Virus record (IMG/VR): IMGVR_UViG_3300029922_002860
Reading direction: 5' to 3' (one strand)
Length of the DNA stretch: 64,000 nucleotides
DNA from: a virus
Lineage: Duplodnaviria > Heunggongvirae > Uroviricota > Caudoviricetes
The stretch's first letter is position 1; each line of letters begins with the position of its first letter. The notes beneath the pieces are model-generated. The model saw only the letters and a list, made by a program, of their open reading frames with translations, was not told the origin of the DNA and did no database searches. Below are positions 1-61,952 of this stretch, in pieces. Made by a program: the position numbers and the translations under genes.

Positions 1-653
1 AGGCTTCCGAAACCTCCCATGTCCTTCACGGACTTTTCCGTTATGATTCCGCGCTCAACAAGTCCCTTGGCGACCTCGGCAACGCGATCTGGCGTCGCAC
101 CGGCGAACCTCGAATCGAAACGGCGGAGGTGCATGTCGCGGACGCGCGCAACGGCCTCGTCCCAATCCTCCCGCCGGCCGAGCTTCTCGTCATAGCGGCA
201 GTAGCGGGAGACGGCCACGTACTCTTGCATCCCGTTCGCCAGGTGCTTCACCGGGCGCATGTCGGCCTGCCCCATGCGATAGCGCATGAAGCACAGGGCC
301 ACGTTCAGCATCCCCGCCTCAGCCACGACCAGCTCGATGGTGTTCTGCGTGTCCTCAACCTTCGGAACAGTGAACTGCCCGAACTTCTCAACGAGTCTGC
401 GCTGCACAGCAACCGCAAGTATCTGCGCCGTCTTGAACCCGTCGGCGTCCAGACCAAACCCCTTGCTAGGGTCGTGGCGGTGCGGATTCTCCGACGACTG
501 GTTTCGCGCTTCGTACATCGCGAGGGCAATGGCCCTGACGATCCGGTTGATGTCCCACTTTGCCAGGGAGCCGTCGCGCTTCTCCACGGATGGGAAAGGG
601 ACGGTGTCGGAGGTGACTGTCAGGGGTGCGTAGTCGGTCGTTGTCGAGGTCAT
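1..653 (-). CDS. ribonucleotide reductase-like protein, N-terminal part (ATP-cone plus class II NrdJ-like region); 3' end beyond window start
   Basis: Open minus-strand frame from the window edge to ATG at about 653, read by eye and not in the ORF track because it has no stop in the window. N-terminus VEKRDGSLAKWDINRIVRAI is ATP-cone-like. RYCRYDEKLGRREDWDEAVARV resembles the NrdJ N-terminal signature. Three upstream motif copies (CCATCTTAT, CCCCCATCTG, CCCCCCATATTTT) at 660-715. Confidence 0.55.
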   Translation of the reverse strand, partial: MTSTTTDYAPLTVTSDTVPFPSVEKRDGSLAKWDINRIVRAIALAMYEARNQSSENPHRHDPSKGFGLDADGFKTAQILAVAVQRRLVEKFGQFTVPKVEDTQNTIELVVAEAGMLNVALCFMRYRMGQADMRPVKHLANGMQEYVAVSRYCRYDEKLGRREDWDEAVARVRDMHLRRFDSRFAGATPDRVAEVAKGLVERGIITEKSVKDMGGFGS

Positions 654-747
654 GTGTGGTTGTTGATAAGATGGCCGAGCCTAAAATATGGGGGGCAGAT
701 GGGGGAGGATCTTGCAGGTGAGGGGTTCCAGAGGTGGTCGAATTGCG

Positions 748-1686
748 TTACAAGGCCGTATCGCTGGGAACCTCTGCCCCTTGGAAATCAGGGACATAGC
801 CGATAAGGCGGGATGCCAAGGCGTTTGCCTGCAAATATCGACCCTCCGCCAATGCCAACCGAACGGCATGGTAGGTGGAGCCGTAGGGCTCGCGGATCGA
901 CGCCTCGATTTCGGGGTCGAGCTTGTAGCCGCAATGGAGACATGCCGGAAGCCCGTAGAGGAGGCAGTTGACCTTCGTGATTTGCACAGCCCGCGGGTCG
1001 AGATCGGCTCCGACGAACTTCACGGCTCCGTAAGCCAACGCCCAGAGGGGAACCAGCGAGGCCATAGCCATAAGCGCGGACCCAGATCCGAGGATGGGTT
1101 CCGTGATGGTGACCGGGTCGTAGTGCTCCATCAGGACCGCCGAGTGCTTGTCCATGTACGAAATCACCGGGGCGTTGGACCAGTCCCCCACCCCCCAGGG
1201 GGCCAACCCCGCGAGGGTCGCGGCCTGGTGCAGGCGTGACATGAGCTGCCCCTCGATGTTCGTCACGGCAATCTGGGCTGACATCAGGCTTAGATGGAAA
1301 GGCGTGGTGAATTGGCCTAGGCCGGGATGTCCGATGAGGTGTGCGTAGGGCAGCCCAAGGACATCGGGGTTGTCCTTTCGATGAAACAGCGGATAGCACG
1401 CGTGGGACCTCATGATCGCGACTGCCTTGGAGTGGACCTGCATCGCCTTGCGACCAATGCCGCTGTCTCGGACCCCCCAGGGATCTTCCCCCTCGCCGGC
1501 CAAGAACGAGGCGACAGTCAATCCACCCCACTTTGCTGGGCGCCGGTAACTGTTGAGCAGGATGCTCTCGGTCAGGTCGAGCAGGGTATGAAAGTCCGAG
1601 ACGCTGCCCCATCCCTCATAAAGCCTGAGCAATGCTGCCGGCGCGTCCGGGTCGGGCTTGCGGGATTGCGGGCGAGGCTGCTTCAC
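748..1686 (-). CDS. hypothetical protein (312 aa, GTG start)
   Basis: GC3-rich ORF. The variant motif CCCCAACTTGCCCAC sits immediately upstream of the GTG. Confidence 0.45.
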   Translation of the reverse strand: MKQPRPQSRKPDPDAPAALLRLYEGWGSVSDFHTLLDLTESILLNSYRRPAKWGGLTVASFLAGEGEDPWGVRDSGIGRKAMQVHSKAVAIMRSHACYPLFHRKDNPDVLGLPYAHLIGHPGLGQFTTPFHLSLMSAQIAVTNIEGQLMSRLHQAATLAGLAPWGVGDWSNAPVISYMDKHSAVLMEHYDPVTITEPILGSGSALMAMASLVPLWALAYGAVKFVGADLDPRAVQITKVNCLLYGLPACLHCGYKLDPEIEASIREPYGSTYHAVRLALAEGRYLQANALASRLIGYVPDFQGAEVPSDTAL

Positions 1687-1754
1687 GTGGGCAAGTTGGG
1701 GCCAACGGGGGATTTGCGGCCCCCTGCCCTTTTGGAGCAGAGGGCCGCGACCCC

Positions 1755-1940
1755 TTAGTTCCTCTTCTCACGCACCCTAGCGTGAGCGAGACTGGACCTG
1801 AGAAGGCGATGTACGCCCACCTCGCCGGAGGAATCTCCGGAAATTGAAGCTGGCAGCCCCATCCGGGAAATCCCGTGGGGAGTGGCACGCATCTTACTGC
1901 CTACCACACCGTCCGCGAAATTGGGGAAAAGGGCTGCCAT
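1755..1940 (-). CDS. small hypothetical protein (61 aa)
   Basis: Internal ATG of ORF 1755..1991 preceded by CCCCCCATAATTATATCC. Confidence 0.4.
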   Translation of the reverse strand: MAALFPNFADGVVGSKMRATPHGISRMGLPASISGDSSGEVGVHRLLRSSLAHARVREKRN

Positions 1941-1987
1941 GGATATAATTATGGGGGGACCCCTCCAGGGTTTCGCCGTTGGGCGCC

Positions 1988-2356
1988 TCAAATCAGACGT
2001 GAGACTCGCCTCCCACGGGCCTCGGCTACGACCGACTGCTTCCCGTGTAGGGAGAAAATCACGTACCGTACGGCACTGCCGCAGGTGAACCTCTCGACGC
2101 GCCCCACCCCCGGGAGAACCCTCCGGAACACCGCCAACGCCGCCTTAAGGTCGGGGTCAGGCACCTCCTCCAGTGTCTTCCACACCGTATCAAGACGAAA
2201 TCCGCGCCCTAGGGTTGCCCCGTGAACACGGTCGTCGTGCTGCCTCTTGGTTCGGCTCGTGGCCTCAGCCTCTAACCGTGCCAGATAGTTCGGGTGCCCA
2301 GGGACGATGCCCTTTGAGGCAAGGCGGGCGATGTCAGCGTTGTTGAAGTGCGGCAT
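1988..2356 (-). CDS. hypothetical protein (122 aa)
   Basis: Internal ATG (MPHFNNADIARL...) directly preceded by CCATCTTGGTGC. A terminator lies just upstream. Confidence 0.5.
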   Translation of the reverse strand: MPHFNNADIARLASKGIVPGHPNYLARLEAEATSRTKRQHDDRVHGATLGRGFRLDTVWKTLEEVPDPDLKAALAVFRRVLPGVGRVERFTCGSAVRYVIFSLHGKQSVVAEARGRRVSRLI

Positions 2357-2371
2357 GCACCAAGATGGCTG

Positions 2372-2409
2372 TAAAAGCCACAGGCCCGCCTTTTTGAGAA
2401 GCGGGCCTG
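2372..2409 (-). terminator. rho-independent terminator downstream of the lipoprotein gene
   Basis: GGCCCGC-loop-GCGGGCC hairpin followed by a CTTTT run on the minus strand. Confidence 0.55.
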
Positions 2410-3327: not shown

Positions 3328-3343
3328 GAATTATGGGGGGTGG
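3328..3343 (-). promoter_or_regulatory. conserved upstream motif CCCCCCATAATT (class A) for the lipoprotein gene
   Basis: The motif ends 1 nt before the ATG. Part of a divergent pair with the 3369-3382 instance. Confidence 0.5.
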
Positions 3344-3368
3344 CTGCCAGATCATACAGACGGGTGCT

Positions 3369-3382
3369 CCCATAATTGTAGT
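3369..3382 (+). promoter_or_regulatory. conserved upstream motif CCCATAATTGTAGT (class A) for the NYN gene
   Basis: Motif immediately 5' of ATG 3383. Confidence 0.5.
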
Positions 3383-5004: not shown

Positions 5005-5106
5005 ATTAGCGTCGGTTATCCGTTAATTATGGGGAGGAATAGGACGTTGCTCCTTCAGACTGGTCCGAATGTGCAGCTTCTGTCATGGGCGCCCCATAGT
5101 TATAGG

Positions 5107-6178: not shown

Positions 6179-6229
6179 CGTAGGGAGTGAGGAAGTATGT
6201 TGCGAGGCGACCCCGCAAGCGGAATCCGA

Positions 6230-7773: not shown

Positions 7774-8126
7774 TGCTGTGCTTAGATTATGGGGTGACCG
7801 AGGCAGAGGCTACCGCTGGCTCATCCCGAGAGCCTTTCTGCATGAACGTGTAATGGAACTGTTAATCTCGCCGGCCGCCGGCGGTTTCTCCCTAAGCTCC
7901 GCAATCCTCCCACGTCTTGGTCCGCCAGAATCAAATCCAGTTCGAGCCATTGGGGCGATGGGTGGGCAAAGAAGGAGGCGTCTGGTCGAACGAAAGCCGG
8001 CGGGTGAGAGCCGCAAATCTACCACCCCCCGGGGGGCCTCATTCGAGGGAGCGGCACCGTGAAAGAGGAAGGCTAACGAGTGATTGTCGCCCCTCCTCCC
8101 CCACCCCTTCGGCTTGAATCCGGACA

Positions 8127-10679: not shown

Positions 10680-12497
10680 ATGCGAGTTTCGGCCGTAGAT
10701 GTCATTGTGCCCCCTTCTTCAACAGTCCAAGCCGACCCCCTCACACGCTTTCGTGTGCGGATAAAGGAACTCCTTCCTCGCGGGAAGGAGTTTTCGGCCA
10801 CAGCCGCACTTGAAGCGCTGGCGCGCGCAAGGGGGAATTCAACTCCTGCCGAGGTCGAGGCGTTCAAGACTGACCTCGCTCCTCTGCCAAATCCGTTTCC
10901 ATCGGTACCGACCACGGACATCGCCCTGAAGCGCATCCAGAGTGCTGTGGCGAACAAGGAAACGGTGGTCGTCCTCGGCGACTACGATGTGGATGGGATC
11001 ATCTCGACCGTGCTCATGTTCGAGGTGCTTCGCCGCACCGGGCTCAATGTGAAGTGCTTTATCCCGGACCGCATTGAGGACGACTATGGCGTGACGCAGA
11101 AGGCCGTGGAGAAGTGCTTGGCCGAGTACGCCCCAAAGCTCATCATCTCCGTGGACTGCGGCTCCACTTCAGTTGGGGTCATCGGTCCGTTGAAGGAAAA
11201 GGGTGTCGATTTCATCGTCCTCGATCACCACGAGCCCGGCGGATGCGTCGAAGGCCACCCCGCCTTGGCCCATCTGAACCCAAAGGCATGGAAGGGCCGG
11301 TCCCCCTTGGTGGATGAGGCGGCTTCGTTCTGTGCAGGTGGTTTGGTCTTCTTCTTCGCCGAATATCTCGCAAACGCGCTTCCCGCCCCGGGTTGGAGAC
11401 GGGATCGTTCCCTGATTCTCGCCGGCATTGCCACGGTTGCCGATGTGATGCCGCTCACCCGAACCAACCGGTCTCTCGTACGGCATTCCGTCTCCCTCGC
11501 GTCCACCGCGCAGGGGAGGAGCCTGGTCCCAGGGGTCTCGCTCCTGCTTGAACGTGCATCCGCTGCGGAATTCACTGCAAAGACTTACGGTTGGGTGATC
11601 GGTCCGCACCTAAACGCCGCTGGACGCGTCACGCACGCACGAATCTCTGCCAATCTTGTGGCGACCAACAATCCCGAGGTTATGGCCAAGAGCGTCGCAG
11701 AGTTGATCGCCACGAATCGCGAGCGCAAGGCCGTGCAGGACAAGGTTCAGGATCAGGCCATGGAACAAGCGGAGGTGCAGATGGCCCTGAATCCTGAGCG
11801 CCGATTCCTGGCCCTATTCGGAAAGGAATGGCACCCTGGAGTGGTGGGGATCGTGGCCGGGCGAATTCGCGAGCGGTTCCTGTTGCCGAGCATTGTCTGC
11901 GGCCTTCACCCCGAGGAAGGGTATTGGAAGGGTTCGGCACGCAGCGTGCGCGGGTGTAACCTCGGCGGCATCGTCCATGAGGCCGTGGACGCAAAGGTGC
12001 TGCTCGGTGGGGGAGGGCACCAGATGGCAGCCGGCCTTCGCCTGGCACAGGGCCGCGAAGATGAGTTTCGGGCGTGGCTCGAAGATCACACTGCCGGGAT
12101 GACATGGGACACCGAGGAGCAATTGGAGGTACTGGGGCCGTATTCTGCCATGAAGGCCAAGGACTGGGACAAGCTGCTGTCCCTGGCTGGCCCATTTGGT
12201 AATGGCAGTCCGGAACCGGTCATGCTGCTGCAAAACGCAGTGTTGACCGGTGGAATCAAGACTCTCGCGGCGTCTCAGTCCGGCAAGGTCTTCGGGCTCT
12301 CGTTCGAGCTGGTGGATAACGGCCGCACCTACAAAGTCTCGTGGCTGGGCCTATCCGCGGAAGCGGATCTGGCTGCCGCCGAGGGAATGCTCCGTCAGCG
12401 ACAGCCAGCGAATTACGCAGTCCGGCAAACCTCTCGGGTCAAGGAGGGCATGACCTACCTGAACCTTGAGATCGCCGGACTGCCGAAGGCGGCCTAG
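10680..12497 (+). CDS. recJ: RecJ-like single-stranded-DNA exonuclease (DHH/DHHA1 family)
   Basis: Motifs VVVLGDYDVDGIIS, DHHEPG and GGGHQMAAG are typical of RecJ. Confidence 0.8.
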   Translation: MRVSAVDVIVPPSSTVQADPLTRFRVRIKELLPRGKEFSATAALEALARARGNSTPAEVEAFKTDLAPLPNPFPSVPTTDIALKRIQSAVANKETVVVLGDYDVDGIISTVLMFEVLRRTGLNVKCFIPDRIEDDYGVTQKAVEKCLAEYAPKLIISVDCGSTSVGVIGPLKEKGVDFIVLDHHEPGGCVEGHPALAHLNPKAWKGRSPLVDEAASFCAGGLVFFFAEYLANALPAPGWRRDRSLILAGIATVADVMPLTRTNRSLVRHSVSLASTAQGRSLVPGVSLLLERASAAEFTAKTYGWVIGPHLNAAGRVTHARISANLVATNNPEVMAKSVAELIATNRERKAVQDKVQDQAMEQAEVQMALNPERRFLALFGKEWHPGVVGIVAGRIRERFLLPSIVCGLHPEEGYWKGSARSVRGCNLGGIVHEAVDAKVLLGGGGHQMAAGLRLAQGREDEFRAWLEDHTAGMTWDTEEQLEVLGPYSAMKAKDWDKLLSLAGPFGNGSPEPVMLLQNAVLTGGIKTLAASQSGKVFGLSFELVDNGRTYKVSWLGLSAEADLAAAEGMLRQRQPANYAVRQTSRVKEGMTYLNLEIAGLPKAA

Positions 12498-13336
12498 CCC
12501 CCTTCGGCTACCTCGTCAGCACCTGACGCCACGAGAAATTGCTCGATGCCCCCTTCTCCTCCGTTCGCGATCTTCCTCTTCATCTTGGCCAGCGCATCTT
12601 CTACGACCTGGCGAACCCGCTCCGTGCAGTAACCGGCCTTCTTGGCAATCTCGGTCAGGGTCTTGGGATCGGTGCCGTCGAGGCCGAAGTGGGCAACAAG
12701 GTACTGCCTCTCCCGCTCTTCCAGAGTATCGAGTTGGTCCATGATAAGCTTCGACTTTTCATTGCTCTCGATCACTTCGTTCGGGCGCGGGCCATGGTCA
12801 GCAACCCACTCCTCGCCGCTCTCAAGCAGTAGAAGAGAGACGTTTGACCTCCGCGCCGCTGCGATCACGGCGATGCGCTGGGCTCGCCGGGTCGAGATGC
12901 CGTGCTTGGCAGCGAACTTGTCGATGTCGAGGAAGGTGCGGCCGTGCAGGTGCAGCTCGTCCTCCAGATCCGCCCTGTACTGCAAAACGAACTTATGATT
13001 CTGCCGGCCACCGACCTTGCGACTGTTTCGCAGCTCGTCGAGGACCGCCAGACGCCCCTGGTAGTACCAGAAGTGGAAGATGTCCGCCTTCGCCTGGTCG
13101 AACTTCTTCAAACTCACAATGAAGCGCTCGAAGGCGATTGAAGCCGCGTCATCGGCCGAGAGGGCGACCGACCGCATTTCCATGCCGATGCGCTTGGCAA
13201 GGAATCGGGCCGAGGTGAGCAGAGTTGCAAGGGCAGCCATATCGCCGCCCTTCGCGGCCACAGCTAGCTTGTTCTGCTGCTTGCGGTCAACGAGACAGTC
13301 AACGATGGGCTGGGTGCCACTGGGTGTAGAGTTCAT
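12494..13336 (-). CDS. sigma-70 family RNA polymerase sigma factor
   Basis: Region 2-like segment (FERFIVSL...FHFWYYQGRLAV) and region 4 helix-turn-helix (LTEIAKKAGYCTERVRQVV). CCATCTTGGCGTAG sits immediately upstream of the ATG. Confidence 0.7.
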   Translation of the reverse strand: MNSTPSGTQPIVDCLVDRKQQNKLAVAAKGGDMAALATLLTSARFLAKRIGMEMRSVALSADDAASIAFERFIVSLKKFDQAKADIFHFWYYQGRLAVLDELRNSRKVGGRQNHKFVLQYRADLEDELHLHGRTFLDIDKFAAKHGISTRRAQRIAVIAAARRSNVSLLLLESGEEWVADHGPRPNEVIESNEKSKLIMDQLDTLEERERQYLVAHFGLDGTDPKTLTEIAKKAGYCTERVRQVVEDALAKMKRKIANGGEGGIEQFLVASGADEVAEGG

Positions 13337-13354
13337 CTACGCCAAGATGGCGGG
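13337..13354 (-). promoter_or_regulatory. conserved upstream motif GCCATCTTGGCGTAG (class B) for the sigma factor gene
   Basis: Motif abuts the ATG. Confidence 0.45.
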
Positions 13355-14005: not shown

Positions 14006-14020
14006 CTAATTATGGGTTGG
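14006..14020 (-). promoter_or_regulatory. conserved upstream motif CCCATAATTAG (class A)
   Basis: Lies 9 nt upstream of the ATG of gene 13391..13996. Confidence 0.45.
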
Positions 14021-14641: not shown

Positions 14642-15121
14642 TGCGCTCCGAGGCAAGATGGCGAGGTACCCCCCGGGGGGCCTCCACAGAGCCATCGGCT
14701 CTTTCAAAAGGGGCGATTCCGGCAGCAGAAGGCTGTTGAAGCGCTCCGGGTAGTACCGAGCCGCGAATTCCTCGGCGACCGCGACGCCAAAGTAATGGTC
14801 CCCGTCGCCATTCCATCCTGGGTCCACAACCTGGCCGCCGGCGGTGGCGCACCACGTGTGCTCCCGCGGAACCGGAATCCCGGTGACCGAAGCGTACCCT
14901 TCGACAAGGAACAGGCCCCGCCGGCGCCCAGCCTTGCTTTGCAACAGCTTCCATGAGGCTAATGCCGGGAACTCGCTGGCAACGCCCCCGGCCGCCGATT
15001 CGGGCTGCCCATAGAACGTCCCAACCCCTGGCGAAAGCAGCAGCCCCCGGCCATTCATTGGCGAATACTGGGCGAGGCGGCTAAGAAGTTCCAGGAAACG
15101 AGCCTGGGGGAATGGTGGCAC
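14639..15121 (-). CDS. hypothetical protein (possible papain/transglutaminase-like fold)
   Basis: GTG start preceded by GGCCATCTTGGAAT. Cys/His/Asp-containing core (HTWCATAGGQVVDPGWN). Confidence 0.4.
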   Translation of the reverse strand: MPPFPQARFLELLSRLAQYSPMNGRGLLLSPGVGTFYGQPESAAGGVASEFPALASWKLLQSKAGRRRGLFLVEGYASVTGIPVPREHTWCATAGGQVVDPGWNGDGDHYFGVAVAEEFAARYYPERFNSLLLPESPLLKEPMALWRPPGGYLAILPRSA

Positions 15122-15134
15122 ATTCCAAGATGGC

Positions 15135-15380: not shown

Positions 15381-15534
15381 GGGGCGACGGTAAGATAACT
15401 ATGGGGTGCGTGAGCCCGAAAGAAAGCCAAAAAGCCTTTAAAAGTAAAACTTTCAATAGTCTTGAAAGAAAAGATTCCTTTATTCTTGAAATTCATAATT
15501 GGTTGGCGATGATAACTGCGAACCAAATAATGCG

Positions 15535-16619: not shown

Positions 16620-16811
16620 CGACAACGGAACTCGTCGTTAATACAGTTTGGCCCTCGGAGCGGGTCCGAGAAAGCTCAAGGATGTCTAAGGCAGTAATTG
16701 CACTCATCCTCTAGATATGGGGGCGACCGTGCGTAGCCCCCTCCCGTATCGGTTTCGTTGGGCCGCCATCCAAAACGCGTTTCTCCCAATGCCACCCCCC
16801 ATAATTCCTCT

Positions 16812-18521: not shown

Positions 18522-18560
18522 TCTAAGCCAAGTTGGCGCAGGCAGTAGCGGCCGCAAGGG

Positions 18561-19497: not shown

Positions 19498-19519
19498 AGT
19501 GGTACCTCAAGATGGAGGG

Positions 19520-20774: not shown

Positions 20775-20781
20775 AAAGTAA

Positions 20782-21501: not shown

Positions 21502-21517
21502 GGGTCAAGATGGCTGG
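21502..21517 (-). promoter_or_regulatory. conserved upstream motif CCAGCCATCTTGACCC (class B)
   Basis: Motif abuts the ATG of gene 20782..21501. Confidence 0.45.
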
Positions 21518-23266: not shown

Positions 23267-23283
23267 AGGGCAAGATGGGGAGG
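23267..23283 (-). promoter_or_regulatory. conserved upstream motif CCTCCCCATCTTGCCCT (class B)
   Basis: Motif abuts the ATG of the AAA ATPase gene. Confidence 0.45.
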
Positions 23284-24849: not shown

Positions 24850-24873
24850 GATCCAAGATGGGAAGGTCCTTCC

Positions 24874-25083: not shown

Positions 25084-25101
25084 TCCCCCCAAGATGGAGC
25101 C

Positions 25102-26549: not shown

Positions 26550-26600
26550 CAGTCTAAGTATGGGGAGGATCAAAGGCTCTTTTGTTGCTGGAGCGACGGC

Positions 26601-36878: not shown

Positions 36879-36926
36879 TGGCTGATATAATTATGGGGAG
36901 AAGCAGCCGGGGATTCGTTCGGTCGA

Positions 36927-37604: not shown

Positions 37605-37647
37605 AAATTAAGTATGGGGGGGCTGACCTGGGCACCTGTTCAGCTAC

Positions 37648-38910: not shown

Positions 38911-38990
38911 ACAACAAGTATGGGGGAACGCTGCCAGGGATTCCTTCAGGAAAGGCCGGTTTTCTACCCCACGCACCCCATACTTTCATT

Positions 38991-41184: not shown

Positions 41185-41255
41185 CGTGGGGATTCAAGGA
41201 AGAGGTCGCTCCCCCGGGGGAGTAGAAACACTCCCCAGAATTCCACGTTTTAGCG
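41185..41255. promoter_or_regulatory. approximately 70-bp imperfect palindrome (AAAACGTGGGGATTC ... GAATTCCACGTTTT) centred on CCCCCGGGGG
   Basis: Fills the gap between the sigma factor stop and the response-regulator start. Confidence 0.4.
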
Positions 41256-41936
41256 AGAAAGTTCCCGGACCTCAGGCATCTTGCTCAGGCGCAGGAGCCC
41301 TCGACGGATCATCTTCAGGGCGCTGGTCTCACACTTGCCAAGCTCCGCCGCGATCTGCTTGGCAGACCACCCTTCAAGGACGTTCAACTCGACAGCGGCC
41401 CGCTCCTTTGGAGGCAGCTTGGCGACAGCCTCGCGCAAAACCTCGGGAGAGTCGTCGAAAAAGGGGTTTCCTGACTCCGCGAGCACGGGTTCGTCCGGCA
41501 ACGCAACGTGCTGGGAGGTAAGCTCCATTTCAAGCAACTCCTTCACCTTCGCGGGAGGGATGCCCTCAACGCGCGGGATTGCGACCGCGCGTCCCGCCAA
41601 GAAGTCCGCCCGCTGCTGGCGATGGATCTTCGTGAGCATCGCCCTGGAGTGCCGGCTCAGCCGGTCAATCAGCCGCTTTTCGTTGGTGATCGCCGTGGAA
41701 ACGAAGACGAACAGGCGCGCCCGCTCGTCATCCTCTGTGTCGGAAGCCAGGTGCTTGCCTGTGCGGTAGAACTGGGCGTACGCGTTCGCGGCAACACTCT
41801 CGATGTCCTCACGCTCCATGCCGTAGGGTATAAACCCGTAATGCACGGACATCGCGCGTTGGGCCACGGGAAAGTTACGGGCATGGATGAACCGTGCCTG
41901 AATGCTGGTTTCGGGTGTGTCTGTCATGCGATTCAA
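41250..41936 (-). CDS. ECF-like sigma-70 family sigma factor
   Basis: Region 4 (ERAAVELNVLEGWSAKQIAAELGKCETSALKMIRRGL). CGCCATCTTGAATCGC immediately before the ATG. Confidence 0.65.
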   Translation of the reverse strand: MNRMTDTPETSIQARFIHARNFPVAQRAMSVHYGFIPYGMEREDIESVAANAYAQFYRTGKHLASDTEDDERARLFVFVSTAITNEKRLIDRLSRHSRAMLTKIHRQQRADFLAGRAVAIPRVEGIPPAKVKELLEMELTSQHVALPDEPVLAESGNPFFDDSPEVLREAVAKLPPKERAAVELNVLEGWSAKQIAAELGKCETSALKMIRRGLLRLSKMPEVRELSR

Positions 41937-41987
41937 GATGGCGTTGGCGGCATCAGAGAAACGACCGCCGGCCGGATTGATGCGTCT

Positions 41988-42494: not shown

Positions 42495-42674
42495 GATTTA
42501 CCCAAGATGGCGCCGTGATTCAACCGCCCGGCACCCGGACGCCTCGCTACGCGAAGCTGCGTACTCAGCGTCCCATGATCGGCGGAACTGAGGAGGCAAG
42601 GCGCCTTCTCATACCGGAGGAGGCGTAAAATGGACCAGACGCCCTCAGCCGCCGCACCTCATCGAAGGTTCCGA

Positions 42675-43336: not shown

Positions 43337-43447
43337 AGAGCAAGATGGCTCCTCGTTACGGAAAGTTCAATCCGTACCGGCCTGAGCTGCCGTGTATCGA
43401 AAGAAACGTCGTGCCCCCTTCTGCCCCTCCCCCGGGGGAGGGGGTGG

Positions 43448-44075: not shown

Positions 44076-44093
44076 GGACCAAGATGGCGCAGG

Positions 44094-44966: not shown

Positions 44967-44990
44967 TCCTAAATTATGGGGTGTGCCTGC
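44967..44990 (-). promoter_or_regulatory. conserved upstream motif CACCCCATAATTTAGG (class A)
   Basis: Motif abuts the ATG of gene 44094..44966. Confidence 0.45.
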
Positions 44991-45213
44991 CCACTGGGCC
45001 TTCAGCCGTAAATCCGGAACAGCTATGTGGGGACTTGCCGCAAAGGCGCCCGCGCTGATGGAGGAATGACTCTCCGATAAGTCTGTAAAGAGTCGCAGGC
45101 GAGCAACCTGCCATAGCCGCTTCGTTTGAACCGGGTTGCCCGAAGTGCGTGCCCTGGAGTCTCACCCCCGGGGGGGTAGCTGTCCTTCAGTCAATAGACG
45201 CGCTAAGAACAGC

Positions 45214-48170: not shown

Positions 48171-48887
48171 TTAAGTCTGGATCTCTACCATCGCGTCGAT
48201 GAGCGCAATGTCGCCCCGCAGCTTCTCTTCAGCCGCCACCCTCAGCTGGTGAACGCGGACAACGCTGAGTCCCATCTCGGCAGCAATCTCCTGGAGCGTT
48301 AGCCCACCGAAGTAGTACCGCTGGAGGACACTGGACTGACCGGGCGTCAACCGCTGGATTGCTGCCCGGATAAGGGCGGCGCTTTCGCTCTCCTCTGCAC
48401 TCTCGGCCGGGGAGACAGCATCGGCGTCAACGATGGAGCGAAGGCTACCGCCGCTGACCTCAATGGCGTCGGTGCTTAGCCGCTCAGCCGAAGCGGCAAG
48501 GTTCTCGATCTTGCGGACCTCGTCCTCGGGCACTCCCATTTCGTCTGCGATCTCCGCATCGGTGGGAGCGCGGTTGAGGGTGGACTCCAGGTAGGCGAGC
48601 GCCTTCTGGAGCCCCTTAACCCGAGCCCGGCCGTAGCGAGACAAGGGGTCCAGCCTGCGCATCTCGTCAAGAACAGCTCCCCTTACTCGGCAAACGACGT
48701 AGCCGCGATCCTGCGAGAGATCGTTGTTGAAGTCCCCCAGGACCTCCATCACGGCGAGTTTGCCGGCACTGGCCAAGTCCTGCGCCGATACGTGCGCAGG
48801 CAGGTGCCGGCTCATCTGCGCCACGACGGCGTCAACGATGGGCATGACATCCAGCAGGGAGATGTTTTCTGTGAGTGTGAGGGTCAC
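48171..48887 (-). CDS. FliA/WhiG-like sigma-70 family sigma factor (sigma-28 type)
   Basis: Regions 2, 3 and 4 (LTLQEIAAEMGLSVVRVHQL). CCCCCTATACCC then GTG. Confidence 0.75.
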   Translation of the reverse strand: MTLTLTENISLLDVMPIVDAVVAQMSRHLPAHVSAQDLASAGKLAVMEVLGDFNNDLSQDRGYVVCRVRGAVLDEMRRLDPLSRYGRARVKGLQKALAYLESTLNRAPTDAEIADEMGVPEDEVRKIENLAASAERLSTDAIEVSGGSLRSIVDADAVSPAESAEESESAALIRAAIQRLTPGQSSVLQRYYFGGLTLQEIAAEMGLSVVRVHQLRVAAEEKLRGDIALIDAMVEIQT

Positions 48888-50065: not shown

Positions 50066-50093
50066 GCGCCAAGATGGCGGATCTTTCCGTGAA

Positions 50094-50169: not shown

Positions 50170-50182
50170 AAGATGGCGAAGA

Positions 50183-50277
50183 TGGCGGAGATGGATAGAT
50201 TCGAACTATCGGCGTCAGGGGATACCTGGCGCGGAACTTTAGCAAAGTTCTGGTTTAGACCTCTCACCCACATCTCC
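50183..50277 (-). tRNA. tRNA-Ser(GCT), type II
   Basis: Acceptor GGAGATG. Anticodon loop TTGCTAA. Long variable arm. Confidence 0.6.
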
Positions 50278-51635: not shown

Positions 51636-51648
51636 AAGATGGGGAGAT

Positions 51649-52188: not shown

Positions 52189-52332
52189 ATCCCAAGATGG
52201 TGGTCTCTCGCAGTAAGAGAAATGGAAAGCGGCGAGGGCTGATTTCTTGCAAACCACCTCAATGAGCCGAGGTGCTTGATCTGTGAGACCTAAGTCCCAG
52301 AACGGCTAATTCACTAGAGACTGCCCGTGCGC

Positions 52333-52629: not shown

Positions 52630-52640
52630 GCAAACCAAGA

Positions 52641-52715
52641 TGGTGGCAGGACCAGGATTCGAACCTGGGATAAGACGATGTCATCGTCCCGTCATAACCG
52701 CTTAACGATCCCGCC
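52641..52715 (-). tRNA. tRNA-Val(GAC)
   Basis: Anticodon loop ATGACAT. Confidence 0.55.
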
Positions 52716-53041: not shown

Positions 53042-53047
53042 TAAAGA

Positions 53048-53122
53048 TGGCTGCTCGGGCTGGGGTCGAACCAGCGACCAAGTGCTTAACAGGCACCTGC
53101 TCTGCCACTGAGCTACCGAGCA
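53048..53122 (-). tRNA. tRNA-Asn(GTT)
   Basis: Anticodon loop CTGTTAA. Confidence 0.6.
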
Positions 53123-56039: not shown

Positions 56040-56333
56040 GGTGGAAGTGGGTCGGCTCAGTGTGCGGTTGCTTTCCGCCCTAGCTGGCTTTCCCACCTCC
56101 TGTGACGCCTGCGCTATCCAGATTAAACTGATAACCTTGCTTTGAGGTTATCCTCGGGATGGCGGCCCACATTGGGCACAGCGTCAGCGAGCGTCCTTCG
56201 GGGCTTGTCCCGAGGGCCGGCGCTAATTTCGGCTGTGAATGGAGGGTCATTTGCGAAGATGTGTTATGACTGTCTGAGTTGCTGAACGGATGATGAAGGA
56301 GAATTTTTAAGAGGGGTGCTAAAGAAAGATGGA

Positions 56334-56577: not shown

Positions 56578-56687
56578 CGGCAAATGTTCCGGAGATTCAA
56601 GGAGTTTGTTGGATATTTGTTATGACGCTCCAAGATGGCGTGAGGTTACAGCGTATCACGAAATGAATTACCGAGGCGCCCGCCATC

Positions 56688-56981: not shown

Positions 56982-56995
56982 AATTATGGGGTGCC
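56982..56995 (-). promoter_or_regulatory. conserved upstream motif CACCCCATAATT (class A) with zero spacer to the ATG
   Basis: Motif 3' edge coincides with the ATG of gene 56688..56981. Confidence 0.5.
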
Positions 56996-57526: not shown

Positions 57527-57598
57527 AGACCAAGCTGGTGACCCACGAATTTGCTCATTTTACCCACCCCCCGGGGGGCCTCCTCAGAGGGAAAACCT

Positions 57599-57889: not shown

Positions 57890-58217
57890 CGAGGGGGTGT
57901 CGGCACAAATGCTCGTCCTCCGAGGACCCGAGCGATCTGTTTCGAAGCTATTCCCGAGGTTAATCTGGCCCTGAAGCTCCCTCGATCCCCGGGACTTGGG
58001 GTCATGCGCAAGAGTCTCCTCCCCACGAGCTTCGCGTCAGTTTGATGCCGATAAGCGGGATTCGTTTGTTACATCCATTTGGATTTTTTGAAAAGCGAAA
58101 AGGTCGAGATACTGGGCGCAAGTCACTGATCTGTGCTGAAATTGGCTCGACTCCGTTGGTAGTTGTAACAAGGAAGGATTCGTCGTTTTGGGCTCCACCC
58201 GGCCCATAATCTTCACG

Positions 58218-60614: not shown

Positions 60615-60704
60615 TGCTTCCGCCCTTCGGATGTCTTCTGATGTTGGCGTCACGCAAGGCGGAGACTGAGCGGCATGCCCTTTGGGGTGTAAACTAATTA
60701 TTTC

Positions 60705-60800
60705 CCCTTTTCGGTAATTCTGGCCCAGGGTGGGTAAATCTGGACCTGGGGTGGGTAAATCTGGCCGGCCCGAGGGCGATCTGGCCGAGGGTGGGTAAAT
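60705..60800. repeat. iteron array: three to four direct repeats of GGGTGGGTAAATCTGG(A/C)C
   Basis: Repeats spaced about 21 bp apart; candidate replication origin. Confidence 0.6.
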
Positions 60801-60943
60801 CTGGACACGCCCCAGAGGGGGAATCGCTCTGCTCATCCCCTCACGTCCGCATCTAAACAATCATTGCCAACATGGGGGTGGCATCCTTTCGAGCTTAAAT
60901 CGACCCAGACCGGGCGGCGAGCGGGCTATGAATGGTAGGCACT

Positions 60944-61017
60944 TAATGACCCATAGCCCAAGGCTGGTAGGCTCTTCTTGACCTGAAGGGGAAAATGGTA
61001 GGCACTTATTGACCCTA
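60944..61017 (+). repeat. two 20-bp direct repeats AATGGTAGGCACTTA(A/T)TGACCC plus a TGGTAGGC half-site immediately upstream of ATG 61017
   Basis: Read by eye; candidate operator sites. Confidence 0.45.
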
Positions 61018-61448
61018 TGAAACGCCTCTCGATCCTGCTGTCCTCGTCCGACATCGAGACACTGACAGCCGCCCGGCGCCGACCCAGGTGCCCCGCGGAC
61101 ACCCAGCGGTACATCCAGATACTTTTTGCGCTTTCGGGACCCGAGGCTGGTGAACGGTCCGTTGCCAGGGCGCTCCAGGTATCCCGGGACCTCGTTCGTA
61201 AGGTAGCTCGGTTACATACCGTCGGCGGTGTTGCGGCGGTCCTGGCCCACAAGCCGGTGGCCTCTCGGCCTCCGCTGCCGGCTGAACGGATTGACGCCCT
61301 CAAGGATCTGGCCGCCAAGCATCCTGACTGGCGTGTCGTTGACCTGGCCAATGCGGTGAGCGCCACGGTCGGGCACATTTCCAAGGGCAGCGCAGTTGCA
61401 GCGCTCAAGGGCCGGCCGAGGCGTCGGGCTTCGATCAAGCCTGCATAG
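61017..61448 (+). CDS. double helix-turn-helix protein resembling the N-terminal DNA-binding part of an IS630/Tc1-type transposase (no DDE domain)
   Basis: Two HTH-like segments (SVARALQVSRDLVRKV, VVDLANAVSATVGHISKGS). Only 143 aa. Confidence 0.4.
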   Translation: MKRLSILLSSSDIETLTAARRRPRCPADTQRYIQILFALSGPEAGERSVARALQVSRDLVRKVARLHTVGGVAAVLAHKPVASRPPLPAERIDALKDLAAKHPDWRVVDLANAVSATVGHISKGSAVAALKGRPRRRASIKPA

Positions 61449-61616
61449 CCCCGGGAAGGCCGCCAAACGGGCGTTTCTGAGGCCCTTCCGCGCCCGATCT
61501 GGGGGAGGTCGCCACCCCTACAGCCAAATTCGTGGGAGGTAGCGCCGCGCCAGGCGCCTTTCGGAGGCTTTGAGCCACCCAATACCCCTCCCCCGGGGGA
61601 GGGGTGTGCGACCGGG

Positions 61617-61919
61617 TCAGTCCCCCTCGGGCTCGGATTCCAAGCTCCCCGACGCCTCGAACACGAGCGACCCATCGGAGACGCCACGGAGGGTGTAGTC
61701 CACGTTCATGAGGCAATCGTGCCCAACGAGCGCCACGGACAGCGCATCCATGAACCCCTCGAACCCGCCGAAGAGGTCGCTGAGGTCGAGCGCGACCAGG
61801 CCACGGATCTCACCATCGTTCTCGCGCCACATCTTCAGCAACGCTTCTCCCTTAAGCGGCGAGGTCAAGACCTGGCCCGGATCGGAGTCGGCAACGGCGG
61901 ATTTGGCGGATGGAGGCAT
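61617..61919 (-). CDS. small acidic protein, possibly STAS/anti-sigma-antagonist-like
   Basis: CGCCCCATCTTGGGGC then ATG. LVALDLSDL...FEASG pattern. Confidence 0.35.
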   Translation of the reverse strand: MPPSAKSAVADSDPGQVLTSPLKGEALLKMWRENDGEIRGLVALDLSDLFGGFEGFMDALSVALVGHDCLMNVDYTLRGVSDGSLVFEASGSLESEPEGD

Positions 61920-61952
61920 GCCCCAAGATGGGGCGGTCGTGACGACCTGGAT

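What the first reader, a model, noticed from the sequence alone, without database searches (positions are those of the whole stretch)
650..61940. Conserved gene-start-proximal motif in two variants, CCCCATAATT(A) and (G)CCATCTTGG(C), upstream of about 45 genes and several tRNAs
On the coding strand, a pyrimidine-rich motif sits 0 to about 25 nt upstream of the start codon of most first-in-operon genes on both strands. A few sit further out, at 36 nt (radical SAM) and 75 nt (phoH). Class A (CCCCATAATT, also CCCATACTT and CCCATAGTT) is seen at the lipoprotein 2485, NYN 3383, pilin 5107, dnaE, pilT-like 16812, recombinase 38910 and lipoprotein 56688 genes (the last with zero spacer). Class B ((G)CCATCTTGG, often the dyad CGCCA-AGA-TGGCG) is seen at the RNR, two of the three sigma factor genes, AAA ATPase, vWA, kinase-like and phoH genes, the small genes inside the tRNA array, and immediately abutting the mature 5' ends of tRNA-Thr(TGT), tRNA-Thr(GGT) and tRNA-Pro(GGG). 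Divergent gene pairs carry back-to-back copies (3328-3382, 5023-5106, 38911-38990). Many downstream 5'UTRs lack any Shine-Dalgarno. This fits an element-specific promoter whose start site lies at the motif's 3' edge, giving leaderless or short-leader mRNAs and tRNAs needing little 5' processing. The two classes may be read by different sigma factors (three are encoded here) or by an element RNA polymerase not in this window. An RNA-level processing or translation signal cannot be excluded.
Basis: seen in the sequence. Interest (0 to 1): 0.85.

Follow-up and report, generated by a model that had tools for sequence, protein, structure and literature searches.

The report
Element-specific promoters making leaderless mRNAs
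A giant mobile element from peat bacteria carries two short DNA words a fixed 5-7 bases upstream of about half of its genes, most likely its own promoters placed so that the messenger RNA starts at or within a few bases of the start codon, with no leader or ribosome-binding site.

Summary
CCATA-N-TT (class A) and CCATCTT (class B) each occur with exactly 5 nt before ATG/GTG 9 and 10 times, against 0.06 and 0.17 in shuffles. They are the top enriched k-mers upstream of genes, and 36 of 68 genes carry one. The pattern recurs in 17 kb of flanking sequence from the same element. In six diverged relatives, orthologous genes keep CCA[T/G/A]CTTG 4-7 nt from the ATG. It is absent from Verrucomicrobia (candidate host) loci.

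Best reading: these are -10-type promoter cores. In class A, CATAAT lies at -12 to -7 if the A of ATG is +1. Transcription would start at the sixth base after the motif. That base is a purine preceded by a pyrimidine even where no start codon lies there (15/22, p=2.5e-5). About half the sites therefore give leaderless mRNAs.

- The start site is probably not at the motif's 3' edge.
- The motif is not confined to first-in-operon genes.
- Lack of Shine-Dalgarno is a host-lineage trait.
- The tRNA-adjacent copies are weakly supported (4 against about 1 expected, and two borrow the upstream tRNA's CCA end).

This is a new variant of a known kind.

The parts
668..674 (-). class B core CCATCTT, 14 nt before the ATG (653) of the ribonucleotide-reductase-like gene
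   Evidence: the gene is identified through L248
684..691 (-). class A variant CCATATTT, in tandem with the B copy at 668-674, 30 nt before the same ATG
712..717 (-). upstream CTGCAA hexamer, 20 nt before CCAT of the class A site 684-691
1693..1699 (-). class B variant CCAACTT, 6 nt before the GTG of gene 748-1686
1947..1954 (-). class A CCATAATT, 6 nt before the ATG (1940) of a 61-aa ORF
2362..2368 (-). class B, 5 nt before the ATG of gene 1988-2356; a terminator hairpin and T-run end 4 nt upstream
   Evidence: the independent gene call in L248 uses the same start
3329..3336 (-). class A; the 6th base after it is A; ATG at +1 and an in-frame ATG at +13 (gene 2485-3327)
3344..3349 (+). upstream CTGCCA hexamer, 20 nt before CCAT of the site 3370-3377
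3370..3377 (+). class A, 5 nt before the ATG of the NYN-domain gene 3383-4567
5025..5032 (-). class A, 20 nt before the ATG of the 77-aa ORF 4771-5004; 6th base A
5053..5058 (-). upstream CTGAAG hexamer, exactly 20 nt before CCAT of 5025-5032
5094..5101 (+). class A CCATAGTT, 5 nt before the ATG of gene 5107-5568
6193..6200 (-). one-mismatch class A variant ACATACTT, 14 nt before the ATG of gene 5585-6178 (weak)
7785..7793 (-). one-mismatch class A variant CCCATAATC, 11 nt before the ATG of gene 7150-7773
13344..13350 (-). class B, 7 nt before the ATG of sigma-factor gene 12494-13336
14008..14015 (-). class A, 11 nt before the ATG of gene 13391-13996; 6th base A
14655..14661 (-). class B lying inside the 3' end of the upstream gene, 12 nt before the ATG of gene 14010-14642; GGAG in the spacer
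15127..15133 (-). class B, 5 nt before the GTG of gene 14639-15121
15397..15404 (-). class A CCATAGTT, 16 nt before the ATG of gene 15135-15380; 6th base A
16799..16806 (+). class A, 5 nt before the ATG of the PilT/T2SSE-like gene 16812-17942
18530..18536 (-). class B variant CCAACTT(GG), 8 nt before the ATG of gene 18273-18521
19509..19515 (-). class B, 11 nt before the ATG of gene 19219-19497
20780..20787 (-). class A, 5 nt before the ATG of gene 20430-20774
20808..20813 (-). upstream CTGACG hexamer, 20 nt before CCAT of 20780-20787
21507..21513 (-). class B, 5 nt before the ATG of gene 20782-21501
23272..23278 (-). class B in a 17-nt intergenic gap, 5 nt before the ATG of the AAA_5 ATPase gene 21827-23266; conserved in relatives
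24855..24861 (-). class B, 5 nt before the ATG of the 521-aa gene 23284-24849; conserved in relatives
25091..25097 (-). class B, 7 nt before the ATG of the 69-aa ORF 24874-25083
26556..26563 (-). class A CCATACTT, 6 nt before the ATG (26549) of a 52-aa ORF
30168..30175 (-). class A CCATACTT upstream of dnaE (26601-30158); 6th base G; ATG 9 nt after the motif
30195..30200 (-). upstream CTGGAG hexamer, 19 nt before CCAT of the dnaE site
31385..31392 (-). class A, 19 nt before the ATG of gene 31111-31365; 6th base A
36703..36709 (-). class B, 73 nt before the ATG of the PIN-PhoH gene 35085-36629 (long leader)
36889..36896 (-). class A, 10 nt before the ATG of the 60-aa ORF 36696-36878; 6th base A
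36917..36922 (-). upstream CCGAAC hexamer, 20 nt before CCAT of 36889-36896
37610..37617 (-). class A CCATACTT, 5 nt before the GTG of gene 36927-37604
37638..37643 (-). upstream CTGAAC hexamer, 20 nt before CCAT of 37610-37617
38916..38923 (-). class A CCATACTT, 5 nt before the ATG of the tyrosine-recombinase gene 37648-38910
38944..38949 (-). upstream CTGAAG hexamer, 20 nt before CCAT of 38916-38923
38978..38985 (+). class A CCATACTT, 5 nt before the GTG of gene 38991-39449 (divergent partner of 38916-38923)
41935..41941 (-). class B, 7 nt before the ATG of the ECF-like sigma gene 41250-41927
42504..42510 (-). class B, 9 nt before the ATG of gene 41988-42494
43342..43348 (-). class B, 5 nt before the ATG of ORF 42989-43336
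44081..44087 (-). class B, 5 nt before the ATG of gene 43836-44075
44972..44979 (-). class A, 5 nt before the ATG of the ADP-ribosyltransferase-like gene 44094-44966
45000..45005 (-). upstream CTGAAG hexamer, 20 nt before CCAT of 44972-44979
50071..50077 (-). class B (full dyad CGCCATCTTGGCG), 5 nt before the ATG of the small gene 49811-50065 inside the tRNA array
52194..52200 (-). class B, 5 nt before the ATG of the small gene 51979-52188 inside the tRNA array
52637..52643 (-). class B, 7 nt before the ATG of gene 52333-52629; its CCA is the encoded 3' end of tRNA-Val(GAC)
56326..56332 (-). class B directly after a terminator hairpin and T-run; opens a unit of about 300 nt that ends at another terminator near 56020
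56632..56638 (-). class B with 6th base G; followed by a unit of about 250 nt (small ORF) ending at the terminator 56370-56336
56982..56989 (-). class A within the palindrome CCATAATTATGG; ATG at 0 nt and an in-frame ATG at +18 (gene 56688-56963/56981)
57532..57538 (-). class B variant CCAGCTT(GG), 5 nt before the ATG of gene 56984-57526
58203..58211 (+). one-mismatch class A variant CCCATAATC, 43 nt before the GTG of gene 58255-58734 (weak)
61925..61931 (-). class B (GCCCCATCTTGGGGC), 5 nt before the ATG of gene 61617-61919
50170..50176 (-). CCATCTT copy 1 nt before tRNA-Thr(TGT); doubtful as a functional site
50179..50185 (-). CCATCTT copy whose CCA is the 3' end of tRNA-Ser(GCT); probably incidental
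51636..51642 (-). CCATCTT copy abutting the 5' end of tRNA-Thr(GGT); doubtful as a functional site
53044..53050 (-). CCATCTT copy whose CCA is the 3' end of tRNA-Asn, 2 nt before tRNA-Pro(GGG); probably incidental
12494..13336 (-). divergent sigma-70-family gene (weak region 2, region 4); candidate reader
41250..41927 (-). ECF-like sigma gene (region 4 only detected); candidate reader
48171..48887 (-). FliA/WhiG-like sigma gene (148.7 bits, below the 189.6 family cut-off); no class A or B motif upstream; candidate reader

Best explanation
The two motifs are the -10-type cores of promoters specific to this element and its clade. A multi-subunit RNA polymerase, most likely host core enzyme with a sigma factor, would read them. 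Three sigma genes are encoded in the window.

Transcription would start at the sixth base after the motif, a purine preceded by a pyrimidine. At about half the sites (19 of 41) that base is the A or G of the start codon, so the mRNA has no leader. At many of the others the leader is only 1-15 nt, and a few are longer (up to 73 nt at phoH).

A leaderless mRNA can only be translated from its 5' end. Each such gene therefore needs its own promoter, which would explain copies in 13-24 nt gaps between co-directional genes and runs of consecutive genes each with its own copy.

Class A (C-n-CCCCATA-A/C/G-TT) has a second element, CTGAAG-like, at a fixed 20 nt upstream in about nine of 19 sites. Class B (cgCCA-N-CTTGG) has no detectable upstream element. 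The two classes probably have different readers or different timing.

Shown here: the motifs, their enrichment, their fixed geometry, the Y/R step, conservation in relatives and absence from host-lineage DNA. Inferred: that they are promoters, the position of the start site, and leaderless translation. Unknown: which factor reads which class.
For: 1. Fixed geometry. Motif + 5 nt + start codon occurs 9 times (class A) and 10 times (class B), against 0.06 and 0.17 in shuffles. The spacing histogram peaks at 5, 6 and 7 nt in the window, in flanks of the same element and in relatives.
2. Class A geometry. With the A of ATG as +1, class A is C-12 A-11 T-10 A-9 A-8 T-7. This is the sigma-70 -10 hexamer at its canonical distance (the promoter geometry is from established knowledge).
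3. Start-site signature. The sixth base after the motif is a purine in 17/19 class A and 21/22 class B sites. The fifth is a pyrimidine in 15/19 and 19/22. At the 22 sites where the sixth base is not the first base of a start codon, the Y-R step is still present in 15 (p=2.5e-5), with a purine in 19 (p=4e-4).
4. DNA-level upstream element. CTGAAG, CTGAAC, CTGACG, CCGAAC, CTGCCA or CTGCAA lies at exactly 20 nt (CTGGAG at 19 nt) before CCAT in nine of 19 class A sites.
5. Terminators. A terminator hairpin and T-run end 4-5 nt before the motif at 2368 and 56332, and also in L248. This leaves no room for another promoter. The unit from 56332 to about 56020 is bounded by terminators on both sides.
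6. Out-of-sample recurrence. 17 kb of flanks from the same element hold 10 more sites, including those before the DNA pol III beta and helicase genes.
7. Conservation. In six relatives, orthologues of the 521-aa gene (38-56% identical in protein) and of its AAA_5 neighbour keep CCA[T/G/A]CTTG 4-7 nt from the ATG. The surrounding intergenic sequence diverges.
8. Specificity. 61-71% of motif copies here, and 61% of class B copies in relatives, are followed within 12 nt by an ORF start. The figure is 0-14% in 234 kb of Verrucomicrobia loci. A more distant homologous gene pair in L252 uses ordinary Shine-Dalgarno leaders.
9. Start calls. Independent gene callers chose the motif-proximal ATG as the start for at least 12 genes.
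10. Precedent. [quoted passage not shown]
Against: There is no transcript 5'-end data. The start site is inferred from sequence alone.

With ATG as +1, class B places its A at -10 and its last T at -6. The start codon is then only 6 nt after a CATCTT hexamer, against a canonical mode of 7.

In relative L161 the class A-like sites read CCCTTAGTT, CCTTACTT and CCCCTAATT, so the supposed A-11 is not conserved.

The CTGAAG-like element lies 21 nt from CATAAT. This is longer than the 16-18 nt spacer of sigma-70 promoters, and a standard sigma-70 scan finds none of these sites.

The motif occupies the position where a Shine-Dalgarno would lie, and it occurs between tightly packed co-directional genes. 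An RNA-level translation signal would fit both facts.

Two sigma genes themselves carry class B, which does not fit a simple host-sigma to element-sigma cascade.

The copies next to two tRNA-Thr genes are not explained, because a start 6 nt downstream would fall inside the tRNA.
Confidence: 0.6

Rival explanations
1. The motifs are promoters of an element-specific polymerase, for example a single-subunit or phiKZ-type enzyme encoded outside the window. The start site lies at the motif's 3' edge. This gives 5-nt leaders and tRNAs whose primary 5' end is almost mature.
For: CCATCTT abuts tRNA-Thr(GGT) at 0 nt and tRNA-Thr(TGT) at 1 nt, and tRNA junctions show a mild excess (4 against about 1). 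Short promoters with the start at their 3' end exist for single-subunit polymerases (own knowledge). phiKZ late promoters are TATG with the start at the G (PMC5312081). Class B does not resemble a -10 hexamer well.
Against: The conserved Y-R step and the start codons sit at the 5th/6th base after the motif, not at its edge. Distances to the tRNA 5' ends are 0, 1 and 2 nt, and two of the four copies borrow the tRNA's CCA. Class A matches CATAAT at the canonical distance from the ATG. Sigma factors are encoded in the window, but no polymerase was seen there or in the 17 kb of flanks.
Confidence: 0.12
2. The motif acts in the mRNA as a substitute for Shine-Dalgarno. It would be a translation-initiation element at -12 to -5, recognised by the ribosome or by an element-encoded factor in a host lineage that does not use Shine-Dalgarno.
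For: The motif occupies the Shine-Dalgarno position at a fixed 5-7 nt from the start codon. It is present before genes separated by only 13-24 nt, and inside the 3' end of an upstream gene. Both the element and Opitutales lack Shine-Dalgarno.
Against: About a third of sites lie 9-73 nt from the start codon. There are two unrelated sequence classes. The Y-R step stays at a fixed distance even where no start codon is there. Class A has an upstream element at a fixed 20 nt, which would lie outside a short mRNA signal. Terminators abut the motif. Half the genes lack the motif yet are presumably translated. The motif is pyrimidine-rich and not complementary to the canonical 16S 3' tail (own knowledge).
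Confidence: 0.1
3. The motif marks an RNA-processing (punctuation) site. An element-encoded nuclease, with the NYN or PIN-PhoH proteins as candidates, would cut polycistronic RNA a few bases downstream. This would release leaderless mRNAs and trim tRNA precursors.
For: NYN and PIN-PhoH genes are present and an RNA ligase gene lies in the flank. Copies occur at tRNA junctions and between tightly packed genes. The class B core can form a mini-hairpin, CCA-UCU-UGG.
Against: No conserved structure extends beyond 3 bp. Dyad extension is at chance level, about 5 of 13 sites. The class A upstream element and the CATAAT geometry point to DNA recognition. Sites lying directly after terminators would have no precursor to process.
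Confidence: 0.07
4. Class B is chiefly an operator for a dimeric regulator that overlaps the true promoters. It would be a dyad, CCA-n3-TGG, bound by a repressor that controls many genes at once.
For: The core is an inverted repeat. In L162 it is a perfect 9-bp palindrome, CCAACTTGG. Two or three window sites extend the dyad to 5-7 bp.
Against: Orientation is strictly tied to gene direction. The central CT is invariant and asymmetric, while the fourth base varies. Dyad extension does not exceed chance. The distance to the start codon is fixed to within a base or two, which an operator would not need.
Confidence: 0.05

Closest known systems
[quoted passage not shown]
   Same: A -10-like element lies a fixed 6-7 nt before ATG or GTG, with no widely conserved -35. 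The start codon serves as the transcription start. Leaders of 1-3 nt are tolerated. A large share of genes is affected (PMC4007540).
   Different: The consensus here is not TANNNT. It is CCCCATA-N-TT or CCA-N-CTTGG, with a C-rich 5' extension. It belongs to a mobile element, not to the host lineage. It occurs gene by gene inside tight arrays. No start sites have been mapped.
Phage T4 late promoters (TATAAATA at -13 to -6, read by gp55/gp33 with the sliding clamp)
   Same: An 8-bp -10-only element occupies -13 to -6, which is exactly the position of CCATAATT if ATG is +1. It has no -35, is scattered in front of many individual genes, and is read by a phage-encoded sigma-family protein (own knowledge of T4).
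   Different: The sequence differs. T4 late mRNAs have leaders with Shine-Dalgarno. No gp55-like protein was identified here; the three sigma genes have a region 4.
Two-class promoters of giant phages AR9 and phiKZ
   Same: These are giant elements with two element-specific consensus classes and a start at a fixed 6 nt after the motif. AR9 early is AAATATATATTAT-6N-G and AR9 late is AACA-6N-TA/G. Promoters lie before about half the genes (PMC5312081).
   Different: Those promoters are read by phage multi-subunit polymerases without sigma. Leaders are 26-491 nt in AR9, and no leaderless transcript was found in phiKZ (PMC8244752). Here sigma genes are present and the leaders would be 0 to a few nt.
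Sigma-28 (FliA/WhiG) promoters, TAAA-N15-GCCGATAA
   Same: One encoded sigma is FliA/WhiG-like. CCCCATAA and GCCAT share the CC-AT-AA pattern of GCCGATAA. The distance from the motif to the start is similar (own knowledge of the consensus).
   Different: The G of the CGA core is missing. There is no TAAA at the expected -35 position. The FliA-like protein scores below the family cut-off.
Poxvirus late promoter/initiator TAAATG
   Same: A short viral promoter core is fused to the start codon of individual genes (own knowledge).
   Different: It is eukaryotic and uses a viral polymerase. Its transcripts acquire a poly(A) leader by slippage. There is no sequence relation.

Membership tests
Canonical sigma-70 promoter (TTGACA, 16-18 nt, TATAAT) | -10 hexamer with A at position 2 and T at position 6, 6-8 nt upstream of the start | tested here: met
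   Class A CATAAT, CATACT and CATAGT lie at -12 to -7 relative to the start codon. Class B CA-N-CTT lies at -11 to -6. The start site itself is inferred, not mapped.
Canonical sigma-70 promoter (TTGACA, 16-18 nt, TATAAT) | -35 hexamer 16-18 nt upstream of the -10 | tested here: not met
   The consensus scan finds none of the sites. Class A has a CTGAAG-like hexamer with a 21-nt spacer to CATAAT. Class B has no upstream signal.
Leaderless-gene promoter architecture (Deinococcus / Actinobacteria type) | -10-like element immediately upstream of the start codon, at a distance that puts the transcription start on the first base of the codon | tested here: met
   The spacing mode is 5 nt after the motif, which puts the start codon 7 nt after CATAAT in class A and 6 nt after CATCTT in class B: 9 and 10 cases against 0.06 and 0.17 expected.
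Leaderless-gene promoter architecture (Deinococcus / Actinobacteria type) | Mapped primary 5' ends at the start codon | not testable with these tools
   No transcript data are available. The only surrogate is the Y-R step at the predicted position.
Leaderless-gene promoter architecture (Deinococcus / Actinobacteria type) | No Shine-Dalgarno between the promoter and the start codon | tested here: met
   7% of starts have GGAG, GAGG or AGGA at -17 to -5, against 59% in a Clostridia control. The Opitutales loci also show only 9%, so this feature does not discriminate.
Sigma-28 / FliA promoter | -10 GCCGATAA | tested here: inconclusive
   CCCCATAA matches 6 of 8 positions, but the G of the CGA core is replaced (the consensus is from own knowledge).
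Sigma-28 / FliA promoter | -35 TAAA, 15 nt upstream of the -10 | tested here: not met
   Base counts at the corresponding positions show no TAAA.
T4-type late promoter | -10-only 8-mer at -13 to -6, without a -35 | tested here: met
   This holds for class B (no upstream signal). Class A occupies -13 to -6, but about half of its sites have an upstream element.
T4-type late promoter | gp55-like minimal sigma plus gp33 and clamp dependence | not tested
   Only the window and about 17 kb of flanks were inspected. The three sigma genes found have a region 4.
phiKZ / AR9-type promoters of virus-encoded multi-subunit polymerase | Element-encoded split beta/beta' polymerase subunits | tested here: inconclusive
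   None was seen among the proteins scanned in the window or in the called genes of the flanks.
Shine-Dalgarno ribosome-binding site | Purine-rich sequence complementary to the 16S 3' tail, 5-10 nt before the start | tested here: not met
   The motifs are pyrimidine-rich. No Shine-Dalgarno k-mer is enriched.

The most novel reading that the evidence does not exclude
The motifs might not be promoters at all. They could be RNA 'punctuation' marks. An element-encoded nuclease would cut long precursor RNAs a fixed few bases downstream of CCAUCUU or CCAUAAUU. This would release leaderless mRNAs and, at some junctions, tRNA 5' ends. It would be a bacterial mobile-element counterpart of mitochondrial tRNA punctuation, operating in a host lineage that lacks Shine-Dalgarno.
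Probability: 0.07. Interest if true: 0.85.

Novelty: new variant of a known kind. Interest (0 to 1): 0.5.

Why it matters
If the reading is right, this giant uncultivated element, probably of Opitutales (Verrucomicrobiota), expresses about half of its genes from its own promoter grammar, and many of them as leaderless mRNAs, gene by gene.

This has three practical consequences:
- It gives a rule for finding true start codons. Gene callers misplace several starts here, for example 4765 against 5107 and starts in L250 and L248.
- It gives a sequence tag for recognising members of this clade, which is absent from IMG/VR.
- It provides defined DNA targets for the three encoded sigma factors.

It also offers a tractable case for how genes are expressed and translated in a phylum that does not use Shine-Dalgarno.

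Tried and rejected
- megablast of 20 kb against 50,697 phage records found no match.
- DnaE-based searches of IMG/VR, metagenomes and genomes returned only hits of 53% identity or less. These lack the motifs. They served as negative controls and pointed to Opitutales as the nearest lineage. They were not useful as relatives of the element.
- Copies of the same element (L077-L080) are 99.98-100% identical to the window, so they carry no information on selection.
- The standard sigma-70 promoter and terminator scan finds none of the motif sites, and terminator-like sites are fewer than in shuffles.
- My own terminator search finds a hairpin and T-run within 75 nt upstream of only 5 of 41 sites, against 6.6% at random positions. 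Terminator adjacency is therefore informative at a few sites but is not general.
- The extended dyad as a conserved hairpin was rejected. Extension pairs are at chance level.
- Genome-specific co-variation of the fourth base of class B was rejected. L161 and L247 carry both CCAGCTT and CCATCTT.
- The sigma-28 and Bacteroidetes -7 (TAnnTTTG) consensus sequences were considered and do not fit.
- Rfam finds nothing but tRNAs.
- PHROGs and Pfam did not settle whether the element is a phage or a plasmid-like replicon.
- Literature searches found no description of this motif, and none of leaderless transcription in Verrucomicrobia or giant phages.
- The syntenic position in L161 lacks the 280-aa sigma gene, so no sigma-to-motif correlation could be drawn.

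Full report
CONTEXT

The window is about 60% G+C. It carries an array of 43 tRNA genes on the minus strand. Genes identified include:
- dnaE;
- a ribonucleotide-reductase-like gene;
- ParA;
- a RecJ-like DHH protein;
- PilT/PilB-type ATPases;
- a tyrosine recombinase;
- NYN and PIN-PhoH nucleases;
- an ADP-ribosyltransferase-like protein;
- two-component proteins;
- three sigma-70-family proteins.

Identical sequence occurs in many bog and peat metagenome assemblies, on contigs of up to 0.2-1 Mb. It is absent from the phage collection and from IMG/VR. Its DnaE is closest (45-49% identity) to Opitutales/Opitutaceae genomes of the Verrucomicrobiota, including one from a palsa. I could not decide whether the element is a huge phage or a plasmid-like replicon.

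THE OBSERVATION

Both motifs are real and strongly enriched.
- CCATA-N-TT followed by exactly 5 nt and ATG/GTG occurs 9 times, against 0.06 in 200 dinucleotide shuffles.
- CCATCTT followed by 5 nt and ATG/GTG occurs 10 times, against 0.17.
- The distance histogram has a sharp mode at 5 nt with minor peaks at 6 and 7.
- An unbiased k-mer count on the 40 nt upstream of 68 genes ranks CCATCTT, CATCTTG, CCCCATA and CCATAAT first, with p from 1e-13 to 1e-20. No Shine-Dalgarno word appears.

I curated 19 class A and 22 class B sites, plus five one-mismatch variants. 36 of 68 genes have a copy within 45 nt upstream. The extended consensus is C-n-CCCCATA-[A/C/G]-TT-a for class A and c-g-CCA-T-CTT-G-G for class B.

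GENERALITY AND SPECIFICITY

About 17 kb of the same element outside the window contains ten further sites. They include CCATCTT + 5 nt + ATG before the DNA polymerase III beta and helicase genes. They also include CCATAATT or CCATACTT + 5 nt + ATG/GTG at places where the gene caller had chosen a later start.

Homologues of the 521-aa protein (23284-24849) led to six diverged relatives on seven contigs: L161, L162, L163, L244/L245, L246 and L247. They are 38-56% identical in protein and 65-70% in coding DNA. In every one, this gene and its AAA_5 neighbour are preceded by CCA[T/G/A]CTTG at 4-7 nt from the ATG, within a gap of 13-24 nt that is otherwise not conserved. L161 also has class-A-like sites (CCCATAAATT, CCCTTAGTT, CCTTACTT).

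In the window, 71% of class A and 61% of class B copies are followed within 12 nt by the start of an ORF of at least 60 aa. In the relatives the figure is 61% for class B, but none of their four exact CCATA-N-TT copies qualifies. In 234 kb of Verrucomicrobia loci it is 0% for class A and 14% for class B, which is chance level. A more distant homologous gene pair (L252) has ordinary GGAGG leaders. The signal therefore belongs to this element clade and not to the host lineage.

WHERE THE RNA PROBABLY STARTS

If the A of ATG is +1, class A reads C-12 A-11 T-10 A-9 A-8 T-7. This is a -10 hexamer at the canonical distance (the geometry is from established knowledge of sigma-70 promoters).

The sixth base after either motif is a purine in 38 of 41 sites, and the fifth is a pyrimidine in 34 of 41. 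This is not just the start codon. At the 22 sites where the sixth base is not the first base of a start codon, pyrimidine-purine is present in 15 (p=2.5e-5 against 0.25), and a purine in 19 (p=4e-4). A Y(-1)R(+1) step at a fixed distance from a -10-like element is the signature of a bacterial transcription start.

Class A also has a second element on the DNA. One of CTGAAG (three times), CTGAAC, CTGACG, CCGAAC, CTGCCA or CTGCAA lies exactly 20 nt before CCAT, and CTGGAG lies at 19 nt before dnaE. Class B has no detectable upstream element.

At 2368 and 56332, and at L248:13606, a terminator hairpin and T-run end a few bases before the motif. No other promoter could fit between the terminator and the ATG. 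The unit that starts at 56332 ends at another terminator about 300 nt downstream.

MECHANISM PROPOSED

The motifs are promoter cores. Transcription begins at the sixth base after them. At about half the sites this is the start codon, which gives leaderless mRNAs. Elsewhere leaders of 1-20 nt result, and a few are longer (73 nt at phoH).

A leaderless mRNA is translated only from its 5' end, so each such gene needs its own promoter. This accounts for the copies in tiny gaps and for the runs of four (12494-15121) and five (20430-25083) consecutive genes each with a copy.

The closest documented analogue is Deinococcus deserti. [quoted passage not shown] Giant phages AR9 and phiKZ likewise have two promoter classes with a start 6 nt after the motif. 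Their leaders, however, are 26-491 nt, and phiKZ has no leaderless transcript (PMC5312081 and PMC8244752).

The promoter nature, the start position and leaderless translation are all inferences. Nothing here measures RNA.

WHO READS THE MOTIFS

Three sigma genes are present:
- a divergent sigma-70-family protein (12494-13336);
- an ECF-like protein with only region 4 detected (41250-41927);
- a FliA/WhiG-like protein (48171-48887; 148.7 bits, below the 189.6 cut-off).

The first two carry class B at 7 nt, and the third carries neither motif. CCCCATAA resembles the sigma-28 -10 element GCCGATAA in 6 of 8 positions. However, the TAAA -35 is absent and the CGA core is broken. The 21-nt distance between the CTGAAG element and CATAAT does not fit a primary sigma. 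I could not assign readers, and the idea of two classes read by two sigma factors stays untested.

1. A start at the motif's 3' edge is not favoured, for the reasons above.
2. The tRNA claim is weak.
   - Spacers in the array are 52% T and 24 of 35 tRNAs encode their CCA. CCA+TCTT therefore arises easily, and two of the four junction copies (50179-85, 53044-50) are of this kind.
   - The excess is 4 against 0.8-1.1 expected, P about 0.01-0.02.
   - A start 6 nt after the two remaining copies, both before tRNA-Thr genes, would fall inside the tRNA. These copies are unexplained.
3. The motif is not restricted to first-in-operon genes.
4. Lack of Shine-Dalgarno is shared by Opitutales loci: 9% of starts, against 7% here and 59% in Clostridia. 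It cannot be used as evidence for leaderlessness.
5. The long dyad is rare. The central CT of CCA-NCT-TGG is invariant and asymmetric, and orientation always follows the gene. This argues against a symmetric operator.

RIVALS AND WEAK POINTS

An RNA-level Shine-Dalgarno substitute would explain the position and the tight arrays. It would not explain the variable long spacings, the two classes, the Y-R step away from start codons, the class A upstream element or the sites that abut terminators.

An RNA-processing signal is not excluded, since NYN, PIN-PhoH and RNA ligase genes are present. It lacks any conserved structure and has the same difficulties.

Weak points of the favoured model:
- the off-by-one register of class B;
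- the loss of the putative A-11 in L161 class-A-like sites;
- the long spacer in class A;
- the complete absence of 5'-end data.

VERDICT

I put the probability that these are promoters at about 0.8, and the probability that they place the start on or within a few bases of the start codon at about 0.6.

This is a new variant of a known kind. Element-specific promoter consensus sequences and leaderless genes are both known. What had not been described, in the literature I could search, is this consensus, its gene-by-gene use in a giant verrucomicrobial element, and the scale of the predicted leaderless expression.

Noticed in passing
window 54336-54482 (-): Rfam reports a tRNA match spanning 147 nt (42.5 bits) in the long spacer between tRNA-Met (54204-54282) and tRNA-Ala (54490-54562). 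ARAGORN did not call it. It may be an intron-containing or disrupted 44th tRNA.
   Followed up: no
window 49619-55711 (-): The array holds 43 tRNA genes covering nearly all amino acids. 24 of the 35 tRNAs at short junctions encode their 3' CCA. Spacers are short (4-24 nt) and 52% T with only 6% G.
   Followed up: partly
whole window; L164-L169, L196: Neither the element nor the Opitutales/Verrucomicrobia loci use Shine-Dalgarno (7% and 9% of starts, against 59% in Clostridia). Regions upstream of starts are C/A/T-rich and G-poor. This looks like a lineage-wide non-SD mode of initiation.
   Followed up: partly
window 4765/5107, 15058/15121, 2485-3327; L250:5723 against 5768 and 6356 against 6419; L248:16467 against 16569: Automatic gene calls often disagree with the motif-proximal start codon, being either too long or too short. 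The motif could be used to correct start annotation in this clade.
   Followed up: partly
window 56020-56640 (-): There are two small units, each opening with class B and closing with a strong intrinsic terminator (56370-56336 and about 56050-56020). They hold only ORFs of about 46-50 codons and may encode small proteins or non-coding RNAs just upstream of the tRNA array.
   Followed up: no
window 26390-26395 (-) and about 41170-41175 (-): A canonical TATAAT lies 10 nt before the ATG of gene 25987-26379. GATAAT lies 8 nt before the ATG of the response-regulator/kinase gene 40097-41161. These would be ordinary -10 boxes that also give near-leaderless transcripts without the class A or B words.
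   Followed up: no
window 56978-56989: The 12-bp perfect palindrome CCATAATTATGG holds a class A word on both strands and an ATG inside it.
   Followed up: partly
window 4094-4101 (-): A CCATACTT copy lies antisense inside the NYN gene, with TCGAAC 21 nt upstream but without the C-run. It could be a weak antisense promoter or a chance match.
   Followed up: no
whole element: The element is abundant in peat assemblies (a single protein is found in 34-79 index blocks, on contigs up to 0.2-1 Mb) but is missing from IMG/VR and GenBank phages. No capsid or terminase gene was seen in about 81 kb. Its nature, huge phage or plasmid-like replicon, is open.
   Followed up: partly
L252 (Logan SRR18313615): A distant homologue of the AAA_5 + 521-aa gene pair sits in an unrelated phage-like contig with classical GGAGG ribosome-binding sites. 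The gene pair therefore travels between elements that use different expression grammars.
   Followed up: partly
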